Below are positions 2,661 through 36,227 of a stretch of 64,000 bases of DNA, one piece after another (positions within the stretch are counted from its first letter, which is position 1; each line of letters opens with the position of its first letter). The translations under genes and the position numbers were made by a program. The notes beneath the pieces are model-generated. The model had not been told where the DNA came from and ran no database searches. It worked only from the letters and a program-made list of their open reading frames with translations. Source of the DNA: Clostridia bacterium. Its GTDB lineage: Bacteria; Bacillota; Clostridia; TANB77; CAG-508. The stretch covers positions 160,229 to 224,228 of the forward strand of contig JAFUGK010000014.1 in the NCBI GenBank assembly GCA_017469445.1, in the 5' to 3' direction.

Positions 2661-2742
2661 ATGTGAGGGGACGCATCTTTCCTATGGGCATTTCTCTGTT
2701 GCTAAGAAATGTCCCCCTTCCCTTATGATCTAGTAATGTCAT
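2661..2742. repeat. P1 intergenic hairpin repeat, copy a (GGGGACA arms), between the rseP stop and the recJ RBS
   Basis: The arms gaggggacgcatctttcc / gaaatgtccccctt are followed by ttatgatctagtaatgtca. The sequence aligns with the copies at 6675-6756 and 35874-35974. Confidence 0.7.
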
Positions 2743-5939: not shown

Positions 5940-6653
5940 CTAATTTTCTATTATAGTTCCAATATTTTCTCCTTTAACAACTCTTTCAATATTGCCAGGA
6001 GTATTCATTTCAAAGACAATTCCAGGTATGTTATTGTCCATACATAATGAAATTGCTGTTGAATCTAAAACCTTTAATTGTTTTTCTAATACTTCCATAT
6101 ATGATATTCTTTCGTATCTTGTTGCATTTTTATCTATTTTTGGATCTGCAGAATATACTGCATCTATTGTTTTTGCAAATAATATGACATCTGCTTCTAC
6201 TTCTGCCGCTCTTAATGCAGCTGCTGTATCTGTAGAAAAGTATGGATTTCCAGTTCCACATGCAAAAATTACAATTCTATTTTTATCTAAATGATGCATT
6301 GCTCTTCTACGTATATAAGGTTCTGCTACTTCTTTCATTTCTATAGCAGTTTGAACTCTTGTTGCAACACCTCTAGATTCTAGCTCAGATTGTATAGCTA
6401 AAGCATTTATAGATGTAGCAAGCATACCCATGTAATCTGATGTTGTTCTTTCTATTGTTGTACCAAATCTTCCTCTCCAGAAGTTTCCACCACCTACAAC
6501 TATTGTAATATCTACTCCAAGATCTTTTACATTTTTAATTTGCTCGCAAATTCTAGATAGTACTTCTGGATCTATTCCTGTCTTTTTTTCACCTGCTAGG
6601 GCTTCACCACTAAGTTTTAAAAGTATTCTATTGTATTTTAACTTTTCTCCCAA
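5940..6653 (-). CDS. pyrH: UMP kinase
   Basis: The N-terminus is [14 protein letters not shown], followed by [10 protein letters not shown]. It uses a TTG start with the RBS AAGGAGAG 8 nt upstream. Confidence 0.9.
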
Positions 6654-6674: not shown

Positions 6675-6756
6675 TTGTAAGGGGACACATCTTTCCCTAT
6701 GGTCATTAGCATGCAGGATAAGATATGTCCCCTTACTTATGAGCTAATGATGTCAT
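6675..6756. repeat. P1 intergenic hairpin repeat, copy b, immediately upstream of the pyrH RBS
   Basis: gtaaggggacacatctttcc ... ggataagatatgtccccttac forms a stem of about 17-20 bp, followed by ttatgagctaatgatgtca. On the minus strand a mini-ORF, ATG ACA TCA TTA GCT CAT AAG TAA (6756-6733), ends at the stem base. Confidence 0.7.
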
Positions 6757-27576: not shown

Positions 27577-27595
27577 CATGAAAAAGTCATATTTC

Positions 27596-27695
27596 AAAGT
27601 TATCTCCTTATCTTATTTAGGTAACACTGTAGCCCAACGTAGGCGATGCGGCATGACCCCATCGCCGGCTAAGATTGGGCGGACTTTTGTGCTAT
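27596..27695 (-). repeat. P3 GC-rich two-stem element, copy a (candidate structured RNA or recombination site), directly after the KAP NTPase stop
   Basis: The outer stem is gcccaa (27632-37) / ttgggc (27675-80). The inner stem is ggcgatg (27642-48) / catcgcc (27660-66). The flanks aaagttatctccttat and gggcggac.ttt.tg are shared with the copy at 35980-36094. Confidence 0.65.
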
Positions 27696-27728
27696 TTTTA
27701 ACGAGCAATGTACGCCCCTACATTTATA

Positions 27729-34901: not shown

Positions 34902-35858
34902 TTACCTCTTATTCTTTTCTTTGTTTCTTTTATCGTTTATAATATCAACTTCTTTTTCTGTAATTAATGTAACATTATTTTCTTTTGCCCAAGACACACA
35001 ACCTTTTAACACTGTATTTAGAAATACTCTTGGTACTTTTACAAATCTCATACATGCTTCATCTGTAAATTTGATTTCTGGGTCAATTCTAGATGCAGCA
35101 TATTTTACAGAATCTAGGCTAATTCCTTTGTTTTCTGGAATTGGTTCTGAAATAGGATTTTTAAATTTTGTATACCAAAAATTCTTGCTATCTCTATAGC
35201 CATAATCAACTGGTACAGATGGGAAGCCGTTTGATGTAACTCCATTTATTATAGAATTATAGTATTTCTCTTTCATTAAAATATTATCTACTTTTAATAT
35301 GAAGTGTGCACCAAATTTGCTAGTTATACCATTAAAATTATGGTATGGTGGCAAATATTCTTCTTGAACTTTATCATCTTGCGCATTATCCAATTCTCTT
35401 ACCCATGTACACTCAAATACTTGAAATGCCTCTTTTACAATTTTAGGATAAGTTTCATTTGGATTTTCTCTTGCTCTTTTTCCATCTACTAAAGTAAAAA
35501 TAGTATCTTTCATTTTTTCTTCAGTAGTTTCACCAGGAAAGCCCAGTCTTACCGCCTCTTTAAAATACTTTCTTTTATCTGGTATAAAGTTTATAGCACA
35601 CTTTCCATTTCTTAAAATATTTTGTGCTGTATTAGAGCTATTTCTACAACATAGTAGCATTGCATAATAGTCTTTTCCAGCTATATAATATGGAAAGCAT
35701 AATGAATATGAACCAATATTAGTTAATCCATTTTCACTTAAAGTTGCTATTTCACAAGTTGGCATAGGAAAAAAGCTAGATGTTTGATAAAAATTATCTA
35801 CAATTCTTAAATTCTTAAATCCTTCCAATTCTTCAATTTGCTTATGTTCTTCACTCAT
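34902..35858 (-). CDS. Flavin-reductase-like domain protein with a C-terminal extension
   Basis: The N-terminal half resembles FMN-binding split-barrel flavin reductases (FFPMPTCEIATLSENGLTNIGSYS, NTAQNILRNGKCAINFI). I prefer the ATG at 35858 (RBS AGGAGG) over the track start at 35897. Confidence 0.4.
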   Translation of the reverse strand: MSEEHKQIEELEGFKNLRIVDNFYQTSSFFPMPTCEIATLSENGLTNIGSYSLCFPYYIAGKDYYAMLLCCRNSSNTAQNILRNGKCAINFIPDKRKYFKEAVRLGFPGETTEEKMKDTIFTLVDGKRARENPNETYPKIVKEAFQVFECTWVRELDNAQDDKVQEEYLPPYHNFNGITSKFGAHFILKVDNILMKEKYYNSIINGVTSNGFPSVPVDYGYRDSKNFWYTKFKNPISEPIPENKGISLDSVKYAASRIDPEIKFTDEACMRFVKVPRVFLNTVLKGCVSWAKENNVTLITEKEVDIINDKRNKEKNKR

Positions 35859-35873
35859 TTTAATTCCTCCTAT

Positions 35874-35974
35874 TTGTAAGGGGATACTTCTTTCCAAGCC
35901 TAGGACACTTCTTTTCCTATGGTCATTCCTCTTATGATAAGAAATGTCCCCTACTTATGAGCTAGTGATGTCAG
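35874..35974. repeat. P1 intergenic hairpin repeat, copy c (with an internal partial arm duplication), immediately upstream of the RBS of CDS 34902-35858
   Basis: tttgtaaggggatacttctttcc aagccta ggacacttcttttcctatggtcatt ... ataagaaatgtcccctacttatgagctagtgatgtca. It aligns with the copies at 2661-2742 and 6675-6756. Confidence 0.7.
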
Positions 35975-35979
35975 TTTTT

Positions 35980-36094
35980 AAAGTTATCTCCTTATTTTAT
36001 TTTGGCACAAAATAGCCCAACGTAGGCATTGCATTTTTCTTTCGAATACTTAAACATCCAATGCCGGCTAAGATTGGGCGGACCTTTATGATAT
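35980..36094 (-). repeat. P3 GC-rich two-stem element, copy b
   Basis: The outer stem is gcccaa (36015-20) / ttgggc (36074-79). The inner stem is ggcattg (36025-31) / caatgcc (36059-65), which has two compensatory base-pair changes relative to copy a. Confidence 0.65.
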
Positions 36095-36184
36095 GTTAAT
36101 CTTGATTTTTAATAAAAAGTTCTTTTCTATAATATACTTAATTTTAAAATTTGTAAATATATTTTCGTAATAAAAACAAAAAAA

Positions 36185-36216
36185 TCATGTGAACTAAGCT
36201 ATCTTAATTCACATGA
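36185..36216 (-). terminator. ATP synthase operon terminator
   Basis: tcatgtgaa ... ttcacatga stem after the atpC stop, followed on the minus strand by TTTTTTTG. Confidence 0.7.
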
Positions 36217-36227
36217 CCTTTTATATA

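What the first reader, a model, noticed from the sequence alone, without database searches (positions are those of the whole stretch)
27596..27695. P3: GC-rich two-stem element present twice, with compensatory base-pair changes (candidate structured RNA or recombination site)
Two copies in the same orientation (27596-27695 and 35980-36094) share about 100 nt. On the plus strand the shared sequence is aaagttatctccttat...tagcccaacgtaggc[stem-loop]gccggctaagattgggcggac.ttt.tg.

The outer helix GCCCAA/TTGGGC is identical in both copies. The inner helix is GGCGATG/CATCGCC in copy a and GGCATTG/CAATGCC in copy b. Two positions therefore changed on both strands so that pairing is kept, while the loop is unrelated in sequence and length (11 versus 27 nt). 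Conservation of pairing rather than sequence argues for a functional fold in RNA or single-stranded DNA.

Read on the minus (gene) strand, the element ends in a strong Shine-Dalgarno-like TAAGGAGATAACTTT. Copy a sits immediately after the KAP NTPase stop and before the direct-repeat-bounded cassette. Copy b sits in the long leader of the flavin-reductase-like operon. I do not recognise it as any known riboswitch or ribozyme class.
Basis: seen in the sequence. Interest (0 to 1): 0.6.

Follow-up and report, generated by a model that had tools for sequence, protein, structure and literature searches.

The report
Dispersed hairpin repeat, not a riboswitch
The two GC-rich hairpins are worn copies of a roughly 100-base palindromic repeat that occurs about 40 times in this uncultured gut bacterium, so they are most likely small mobile DNA rather than a dedicated regulatory RNA.

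Summary
Both copies exist as described, on the minus strand, with the stated helices and paired changes.

They are not a two-copy element. The genome (1.53 Mb, 28% GC) holds about 40-44 copies of this ~105-nt imperfect palindrome, here called E1. A covariance model finds E1 in 22 of 151 genomes of the same family and in 0 of 4 congeners.

- **Structure:** the hairpin base is conserved and the apex varies. 98.5% of stem cells pair, almost all as Watson-Crick pairs.
- **Rfam:** no match.
- **Neighbouring genes:** downstream genes are unrelated housekeeping genes.
- **Turnover:** in genome pairs 94-98% identical, E1-bearing elements are present or absent, replaced or inverted at the same loci.

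Best reading: a REP/MITE-like mobile hairpin repeat whose stem pairing is kept by whatever mobilises it. It probably also acts incidentally as an RNA hairpin in untranslated regions.

The mobilising enzyme and insertion junctions for this genome's own form are not shown. This is a new member of a known kind. Earlier notes of this scan recorded related hairpin repeats elsewhere in this genome.

The parts
27612..27699 (-). E1 copy a. A hairpin repeat unit of the short-apex variant. The core model match is 27625-27685.
   Evidence: (55.1 bits, E 7.7e-12). RNA fold -31.9 kcal/mol, z -2.3.
27586..27621 (-). Linker plus a truncated 5' module of the second repeat (E2). It carries the SD-like AAGGAGA and TTG. 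The E2 hairpin is missing here.
   Evidence: Homology to other composites stops after ...TATGAC.
27700..27723 (-). Small GTAG-type REP hairpin between the KAP NTPase stop and E1 copy a.
   Evidence: a family of about 20 such hairpins. Four E1 copies have one just upstream.
36008..36098 (-). E1 copy b. The core model match is 36008-36084. It lacks 9 nt of the 5' strand of the apical helix.
   Evidence: (71.4 bits, E 4.2e-16). RNA fold -25.6 kcal/mol, z -1.2.
35868..36007 (-). Linker plus a complete E2 leader repeat. It comprises the SD-like box, a conserved 19-nt motif at 35955-35973, and a GGGGA...TCCCC hairpin at about 35876-35954. It ends just before the AGGAGG and ATG (35858) of the flavin-reductase-like gene.
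36129..36222 (-). Intrinsic terminator of atpC (36222-36179) followed by a promoter-like site (36157-36129, 10 of 12 consensus positions). Both lie upstream of E1 copy b.

Best explanation
The two elements are members of E1. E1 is a family of non-coding, GC-rich, imperfect-palindrome intergenic repeats of about 105 nt, of the REP/MITE kind, which has multiplied to about 40 copies in this genome.

The conserved hairpin base is the cis-acting part. It consists of helix P1, two asymmetric internal loops, helix P2 and a GCTAC tail, and it is copied with the element. The apex is dispensable cargo.

Stem pairing is kept because the mobilising or copying machinery needs the two arms to match, either as an inverted repeat or as a folded single strand. 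This yields paired ('compensatory') differences between subfamilies without any regulatory RNA function.

- **Shown:** copy number, structure, covariation, patchy spread, unrelated neighbours, and locus turnover between close relatives.
- **Inferred:** that E1 itself, and not only its carrier, is mobile in this genome; the enzyme that moves it; and any effect as a transcribed hairpin (terminator or mRNA stabiliser) in untranslated regions.
For: **Copy number and shape**
- 44 5'-arm hits, 39 with a 3' arm. 25 of these are the canonical 79-nt core.
- The model gives 40 matches in the loci held.
- Conservation ends about 14 nt before and about 13 nt after the core.

**Pairing**
- 98.5% of 866 cells pair. 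10 of 24 pairs changed on both sides. Slid controls pair at only 42-57%.
- 845 Watson-Crick pairs, 8 G-U, 2 A-C, 11 other.
- Both strands fold about equally well: -33.5 and -31.0 kcal/mol.

**Spread**
- E1 is in 22 of 151 family genomes and 14 of 50 genera, many of them multi-copy. It is in 0 of 4 congeners.
- All named records are uncultured gut or rumen Clostridia MAGs.

**Base conserved, apex variable**
- The apex varies from 60 to 138 nt across genera.
- Four copies in this genome carry the same foreign hairpin at the apex.

**Turnover**
- G160 has 31 copies and G090 has 14, with flanks 93-98% identical.
- 5 of 6 G160 loci tested lack the element in G090.
- 2 of 4 shared loci hold it in opposite orientation.
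- In G138 versus G087 (94-95% identical) the same intergenic slot holds E1 in one genome and an unrelated hairpin element in the other.
- Metagenome relatives carry E1 where this genome has an empty 76-nt spacer.

**No regulon**
- Downstream genes include SleB-like, TatD, RlmB, peptide deformylase, Tgt, an Rrf2 regulator, FtsW, YfmF, an acyl-CoA ligase, MnmA and a surface lectin.
Against: - **No junctions in this genome.** No target-site duplication at any fixed offset. No terminal repeat beyond the short outer helix. No strain close enough for an empty-site comparison; the congeners are only about 73% identical.
- **The clean junctions belong to a carrier.** The 7-8-bp duplications in genus g38 belong to an outer terminal repeat (GTTACAATTCACAGC). 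That repeat occurs in 125 of 401 family genomes. These include genomes with no E1 match among those scored, such as G049 with 44 hits, and it has 0 hits in this genome. There, E1 may be only cargo.
- **No partner gene.** No transposase gene flanked by E1 was found.
- **Orientation bias.** 36 of 43 copies are co-oriented with the downstream gene. This could mean an RNA-level role.
- **Conserved core.** The core is more conserved across genera than the outer ends, which is unusual for a plain MITE.
- **No expression data.** No RNA data were available.
Confidence: 0.7

Rival explanations
1. E1 is a long, GTAG-tailed REP-type element mobilised as a folded single strand by one of the genome's RAYT-like Y1 (HUH) transposases. 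Insertion would occur on the lagging-strand template. That would explain the strand-specific loops, the orientation bias and the lack of target duplications.
For: - Read on the opposite strand, the element starts with GTAG followed by a palindrome. The GCTA(C) tail is nearly invariant across genera.
- The genome has 3 Y1_Tnp genes above the Pfam cut-off. One of them is bracketed by inverted GGGGACAC repeats.
- 37 of 44 copies have the sense strand on the leading strand.
- No target duplication was found in this genome.
- Pairs are almost all Watson-Crick.
- 17 of 22 E1-positive genomes have a Y1 gene, against 61 of 129 others.
- GTAG repeats and RAYT or TIRYT systems are described in PMC3733652 (sections 5 and 16 read).
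Against: - None of the 3 Y1 genes is flanked by E1; the nearest copy is about 2 kb away.
- G024 has 28 copies and G095 has 19 copies, yet neither has a Y1 match.
- E1 is 2-4 times longer than described REPs and mostly stands alone, not in inverted dimers.
- The leading-strand bias (84%) equals that of the genes (1172 of 1400), so replication and transcription cannot be told apart.
- G160 shows no bias relative to genes: 6 copies co-oriented with both flanking genes against 5 opposed to both, among the 16 of its 31 loci examined.
Confidence: 0.15
2. E1 acts mainly at the RNA level as a host-useful module. It would be a hairpin in 3' or 5' untranslated or intercistronic regions that ends transcription, or that protects or processes mRNA. 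It would be kept in the sense orientation by selection. Its spread would be secondary.
For: - 36 of 43 copies are co-oriented with the downstream gene.
- The canonical copy folds at -33.5 kcal/mol, z -5.4.
- An A-rich run precedes the hairpin and a U-rich run follows it.
- About 10 copies end 14-45 nt before a start codon.
- In 30 co-directional spacers holding a sense-orientation copy, another terminator-like site lies upstream in 5 and downstream in 0.
- In G138 the element sits between a stop codon and the next -10 box, a slot filled by another hairpin element in G087.
- At one orthologous 5' region, relatives carry E1 where this genome carries E2.
- bcr1 of the Bacillus cereus group is a transcribed mobile repeat with compensatory changes (PMC3184786, passages read).
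Against: - G-U pairs are rare, and hardly more frequent than A-C: 8 against 2 in this genome and 9 against 7 across genera.
- Both strands fold alike.
- 5 copies are antisense to both neighbouring genes.
- Orientation flips at shared loci.
- G160 shows no orientation bias in the 16 of its 31 loci examined.
- Copy b has lost half of the apical helix.
- E1 is not found in the 4 congeners.
Confidence: 0.12
3. E1 is a site for a site-specific recombinase. It would be either an attC-like folded site or an invertible switch. This would explain the two helices separated by an unpaired spacer, the variable apex and the orientation flips.
For: - The architecture (basal helix, asymmetric spacer, second helix, variable top, 60-138 nt) resembles attC.
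- The 3' arm GTTGGGC of the window copies fits the recalled R' consensus GTTRRRY.
- Orientation differs at 2 of 4 shared loci between G090 and G160, and at one locus between this genome and metagenome relatives.
Against: - The copies are dispersed singly, about one per 35 kb, among housekeeping genes and not in cassette arrays.
- No integron integrase reaches the NCBIfam cut-off in 0 of 5 genomes of the genus.
- The majority form (GTTTGGC) and other genera (GTGGAGC) do not fit the box consensus.
- No reads were available to show both orientations within one population (one search gave contigs only).
Confidence: 0.03

Closest known systems
bcr1 and other group A repeats of the Bacillus cereus group (Okstad 2004; Klevan 2007; Kristoffersen 2011, as summarised in PMC3184786; passages read)
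   Same: Both are found in Bacillota. Both are small non-coding dispersed repeats (about 155 nt for bcr1). Their distribution between related strains is not conserved. Both have a folded structure kept by compensatory base-pair changes, with copies that lose stability.
   Different: bcr1 has 5-bp direct repeats at its ends and is shown to be transcribed. For E1 in this genome no duplication was found and no RNA data exist. Sequence relatedness to bcr1 was not tested.
GTAG-tagged REP elements and RAYT or TIRYT systems (Di Nocera et al. 2013, PMC3733652; abstract and sections 5 and 16 read)
   Same: Both are intergenic palindromes with complementary stem variants that define subfamilies. Both have a conserved unpaired tail (GTAG when E1 is read on the opposite strand). 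Both can have complex loops, and several repeat families coexist in one genome. Y1 transposase genes are present.
   Different: Described REPs are 20-40 bp, often occur in inverted dimers, and flank their RAYT gene. E1 is 80-138 nt, mostly stands alone, and flanks none of the 3 Y1 genes.
Bacterial MITEs that form long RNA hairpins: ERIC, Correia/nemis, RUP, BOX (reviews PMC2229807 and PMC10969869, seen only in a search listing; properties recalled)
   Same: Size is about 100-190 nt. The element is an imperfect palindrome over its whole length. It lies in intergenic regions inside transcription units and shows bursts of near-identical copies. In genus g38 the carrier has terminal inverted repeats and 7-8-bp duplications.
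   Different: For the form in this genome there is no target duplication and no matching insertion sequence. The inner core, not the termini, is the part conserved across genera.

Membership tests
MITE (non-autonomous DNA transposon) | Small, non-coding, many dispersed near-identical copies | tested here: met
   About 40-44 copies with a 79-nt core (105 nt with flanks). Many are 90-100% identical.
MITE (non-autonomous DNA transposon) | Terminal inverted repeats | tested here: met
   The whole unit is an imperfect palindrome with 24 modelled pairs plus a short outer helix. The arms differ by conserved asymmetric loops.
MITE (non-autonomous DNA transposon) | Target-site duplication at the junctions | tested here: not met
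   In this genome no direct repeat stands above the shuffled-pair control at any offset, for k = 6-8 over 39 copies. The 7-8-bp duplications seen in G160 belong to an outer carrier repeat.
MITE (non-autonomous DNA transposon) | Presence/absence at orthologous sites in close relatives | tested here: inconclusive
   Met for E1-bearing elements in G160 versus G090 (5 of 6 loci) and for slot replacement in G138 versus G087. For this genome's lineage, only relatives 72-83% identical were available.
MITE (non-autonomous DNA transposon) | A full-length insertion sequence with the same ends | tested here: not met
   - No arm pairs at insertion-sequence spacing in this genome.
- In G160 and G090 all outer-repeat hits sit in pairs about 160-175 nt apart.
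- E1 pairs 1-2 kb apart flank housekeeping genes.
REP / REPIN with RAYT | Unpaired GTAG (or CGTC) tag at one end of the palindrome | tested here: met
   The GCTA(C) tail directly after helix P1 is nearly invariant in 45 sequences from three genera and is kept in further genera. On the other strand it reads GTAG.
REP / REPIN with RAYT | Short 20-40-bp palindrome, often in inverted dimers | tested here: not met
   Units are 60-138 nt and nearly all stand alone.
REP / REPIN with RAYT | The repeats flank a RAYT (Y1) gene | tested here: not met
   Three Y1_Tnp genes are present but none is flanked by E1. G024 has 28 copies and no Y1 match.
Integron attC site | Arrays of cassettes next to an integron integrase, with R''/R' boxes fitting the consensus | tested here: not met
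   The copies are dispersed singly. TIGR02249 is over the cut-off in 0 of 5 genomes of the genus. The box consensus (recalled) fits only the minority variant.
Riboswitch or other curated cis-regulatory RNA | Match to a curated family, conserved position before functionally related genes | tested here: not met
   No Rfam match beyond weak, far-below-threshold hairpin (microRNA-precursor) look-alikes. Downstream genes are unrelated. E1 is not found in the 4 congeners.
Intrinsic transcription terminator | GC-rich stem directly followed by a U-tract, at the end of transcription units | tested here: inconclusive
   The GC-rich basal helix is followed by UAC and 3-4 U. The opposite strand has a better U run. 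The scan tool flags only a mini-stem in copy b. No 3'-end data exist.

The most novel reading that the evidence does not exclude
The conserved E1 core may be the real functional unit. It is kept across at least 14 genera, while its outer ends and apex are swapped freely. It would be a protein-recognised hairpin module, as single-stranded DNA or RNA, that hops between intergenic 'slots' and even into other hairpin repeats. It would be interchangeable with E2 and other hairpin elements as a portable terminator or UTR cassette.

If so, this lineage has a modular, self-spreading toolkit for intergenic signals rather than mere junk repeats. It may be driven by its RAYT-like Y1 proteins.
Probability: 0.15. 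Interest if true: 0.55.

Novelty: new member of a known kind. Interest (0 to 1): 0.3.

Why it matters
- **It removes a false lead.** The paired base changes that looked like riboswitch-type covariation arise within a family of selfish or semi-selfish palindromic repeats. Covariation between a few copies in one genome is therefore not evidence for a regulatory RNA.
- **It documents a dense repeat ecology.** These uncultured small-genome gut and rumen Clostridia carry a nested set of hairpin repeats: E1, the E2 leader repeat, GTAG REPs, and a widespread 15-nt terminal-repeat MITE. These fill and exchange the short spacers between housekeeping genes. That bears on MAG assembly breaks, on promoter and terminator annotation, and on how compact genomes renew intergenic signals.
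- **It gives a working tool.** The covariance model and the conserved asymmetric core allow these elements to be masked or tracked.

Tried and rejected
- **Rfam.** Gathering and E-value modes were run on the window copies, on canonical copies and on the G160 form. Only weak microRNA-precursor look-alikes came up, far below threshold.
- **Sequencing runs.** No RNA holder was listed. Laying four DNA runs gave Logan contigs only. These break at the repeats and show neither an empty site nor an inversion (one search was unanswered).
- **Congeners for empty sites.** Coding DNA is only about 73% identical, so the spacers cannot be aligned.
- **Metagenome scan with this genome's exact core.** 0 matches.
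- **Viral contigs with the family pattern.** 0 matches.
- **Locus-specific palindromes around the copies in this genome.** None beyond the control.
- **Target duplications in this genome.** None.
- **Lenient BLAST extension of flanks.** Uninformative in AT-rich DNA.
- **Search for a parent insertion sequence.** Nothing from orphan arms, outer-repeat spacing or E1 pairs.
- **Promoter inside the 5' flank.** No convincing -10/-35 was seen in the sequences. The idea was dropped.
- **The two window copies as ends of an 8.4-kb island.** Rejected. The genes between them are housekeeping (RecD2, ComF-like and others), and copies 0.2-1.2 kb apart occur elsewhere.
- **One locus (L153).** It falls on a contig break in G090 and was not counted as empty.

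Full report
**1. The observation**

Both stretches exist as described.
- On the minus strand, which is the gene strand here, each has a basal helix GCCCAA/TTGGGC, an asymmetric internal loop and a second helix.
- The second helix is GGCGATG/CATCGCC in copy a and GGCATTG/CAATGCC in copy b.
- The tops are unrelated, at 11 and 27 nt.
- An alignment with a third genomic copy shows that the shared ~100 nt are a composite. They consist of the hairpin unit (E1), a conserved linker, and the first part of a second repeat (E2) that supplies the SD-like AAGGAGA.
- Rfam has nothing for either place, at gathering or at permissive thresholds.

**2. Not two copies but a family**

- The assembly has 1.53 Mb in 26 contigs, 28% GC and 94% completeness.
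- The 5' arm occurs 44 times at up to 4 mismatches. 39 of these have a 3' arm within 200 nt.
- 25 have the canonical 79-nt core, 4 are 130-131 nt, and the rest are shorter.
- Column conservation falls to background about 14 nt before and about 13 nt after the core, so the unit is about 105 nt.
- The canonical top is a 9-bp pyrimidine/purine helix. Copy b has lost 9 nt of it. Copy a carries a rarer short top.
- A covariance model (R1) finds only the two reported places in the window.

**3. Structure**

- On 34 sequences from three genera, 99.0% of cells pair and 11 of 24 pairs show changes on both sides.
- On the 39 distinct copies of this genome, 98.5% of 866 cells pair and 10 of 24 pairs changed on both sides. 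0 of 500 shuffles reach this, and slid partners pair at only 42-57%.
- The variation sits in three central pairs of the second helix. At least eight fully complementary variants exist.
- The same foreign apex occurs with three different variants. These positions therefore change or recombine quickly.
- Pairs are almost all Watson-Crick: 845, with 8 G-U, 2 A-C and 11 other.
- Both strands fold about equally well: -33.5 kcal/mol (z -5.4) and -31.0 kcal/mol (z -4.6).
- This pattern fits complementarity kept at the DNA level, or in a folded single strand, at least as well as an RNA.

**4. Spread**

- BLAST finds E1 in 2 of 40 relatives.
- The model finds it in 22 of 151 genomes of the family and 14 of 50 genera, counting this genome. 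It finds it in none of 4 congeners.
- Counts reach 28 per genome, although only 29 candidates per genome were scored.
- A pattern scan of species-representative genomes returns 24 stretches. All come from uncultured gut or rumen Clostridia MAGs.
- Metagenome contigs give 38 more stretches, and viral contigs give none.
- Across genera the conserved part is the base: UCCGC, helix P1, UCUYR on the 5' side, a short RCG loop on the 3' side, helix P2 and a GCUA(C) tail.
- The apex ranges from a few bases to nested hairpins.

**5. Context in this genome**

- Copies lie between predicted genes. In 6 cases they overlap an unverified ORF call.
- 36 of 43 are co-oriented with the downstream gene. 31 lie between two co-oriented genes, and 5 are antisense to both.
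- 37 of 44 have the sense strand on the leading strand. So do 84% of genes, which confounds the two causes.
- Downstream genes have no common theme.
- At copy b, a canonical terminator and a promoter-like site lie upstream of E1.
- In 30 co-directional spacers holding a sense-orientation copy, another terminator-like site lies upstream in 5, downstream in 0, and is absent in 21.

**6. Evidence for turnover**

*G160 versus G090 (same genus, flanks 93-98% identical).*
- They hold 31 and 14 model matches.
- Of 6 G160 loci tested, 5 have both flanks adjacent in G090 without the element. One falls on a contig break.
- The junctions show:
  - an exact 8-nt repeat in one case (7 nt in the empty allele);
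  - an exact 7-nt repeat in a second case;
  - a T-run overlap of at least 4 nt in a third;
  - complex replacements in the remaining two, one of which still carries a 7-nt repeat in the filled allele.
- These ends are a 15-nt terminal inverted repeat. One search shows that this repeat is a widespread carrier:
  - it occurs in 125 of 401 family genomes;
  - its inner lengths run from about 35 to 350 nt;
  - it is present in genomes with no E1 match among those scored;
  - it has 0 hits in this genome.
- So in that genus E1 rides inside another MITE. The duplications cannot be credited to E1 itself.
- Of the 4 loci shared by G090 and G160, 2 hold the core in opposite orientation.

*Other comparisons.*
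- G138 versus G087 (94-95% identical): the same stop-to-promoter spacer holds E1 in one genome and an unrelated ~190-nt hairpin element in the other.
- Against metagenome relatives that are 72-83% identical:
  - this genome has an empty 76-nt spacer where they carry E1;
  - it has E2 where they carry E1 just before a ribosome-binding site;
  - it has one copy in the opposite orientation.

*Limits for this genome.*
- I found no target duplication, no locus-specific palindrome and no insertion-sequence-sized pair of arms.

**7. Candidate enzymes**

- Three Y1_Tnp genes pass the Pfam cut-off, and none is flanked by E1.
- One is bracketed by inverted GGGGACAC repeats.
- Across the family, 17 of 22 E1-positive genomes have a Y1 match, against 61 of 129 others. 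G024 (28 copies) and G095 (19 copies) have none.
- No integron integrase reaches its cut-off in the genus.

**8. Reading**

- The best-supported account is a REP/MITE-like repeat family with a conserved hairpin base and a variable, cargo-bearing apex.
- The paired changes are subfamily differences in an element that must keep its arms complementary.
- The closest described parallel is bcr1 of the Bacillus cereus group. It is mobile, transcribed, and has compensatory changes and decaying copies (PMC3184786, passages read). GTAG-tagged REPs are also close (PMC3733652).
- It is not shown how E1 moves in this genome, or whether its sense bias reflects an RNA role, a polarity cost, or strand-specific insertion.
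- I put 0.7 on the general reading. The rest is shared among a RAYT-driven single-strand element, a host-useful RNA hairpin and a recombination site.
- Earlier notes of this scan (e1-699758, e1-1222865) recorded related hairpin repeats on other pieces of this genome.

Noticed in passing
window 35868-36007(-), with further copies at about 6736-6756(-) and 2722-2742(-); 53 places in the genome: A second repeat, E2.
- Its parts are an SD-like box, TTG, a conserved 19-nt motif, and a GGGGA...TCCCC hairpin that contains G-U pairs.
- 52 of 53 copies are co-oriented with the next gene.
- In 20 of 52 copies the start codon lies 75-84 nt after the motif.
- The reversed control motif gives 1 hit.
- It may be a tiny leader ORF or a promoter followed by a 5' hairpin.
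- The motif is nearly confined to this genome: 36 hits here, and 1-3 hits in 5 of 150 other family genomes.
   Followed up: partly
window 27700-27723(-); about 20 places in the genome: A classical small GTAG-type REP (GTAG plus a 7-8-bp GC stem with a 3-nt loop). It sits directly upstream of 4 E1 copies. In G005, REP-E1-REP units are tandemly duplicated.
   Followed up: partly
window about 5949-6025 (contig C21:166177-166253): A 76-nt spacer that is empty here but holds an E1 copy in two metagenome contigs whose flanking genes are about 77% identical.
   Followed up: partly
G000 contig C5:128123-128920, outside the window: A RAYT/TIRYT-like Y1 gene bracketed by inverted GGGGACACCTACC... repeats. 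The E2 hairpin stem begins with a related GGGGACA motif.
   Followed up: partly
L073, L131, L133, L135 (G160) and 125 of 401 family genomes: A MITE superfamily defined by the 15-nt terminal repeat GTTACAATTCACAGC.
- It has 7-8-bp AT-rich target duplications.
- Its inner cargo runs from about 35 to 350 nt.
- It reaches up to about 70 hits per genome.
- It has none in the window's genome.
- No insertion-sequence-sized partner was seen in G160 or G090.
   Followed up: partly
G000 contigs C5:50823, C5:146862, C5:53555 and C26:114158: Four E1 copies carry the same E2-like GGGGACAC...GTGTCCCC hairpin at their apex, but with three different stem variants below it. This points to nested insertion followed by copying or recombination.
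   Followed up: no
window 34902-35897(-): The listed ORF starts at an upstream TTG inside the E2 hairpin. The ATG at 35858, preceded by AGGAGG, is the more likely start.
   Followed up: no
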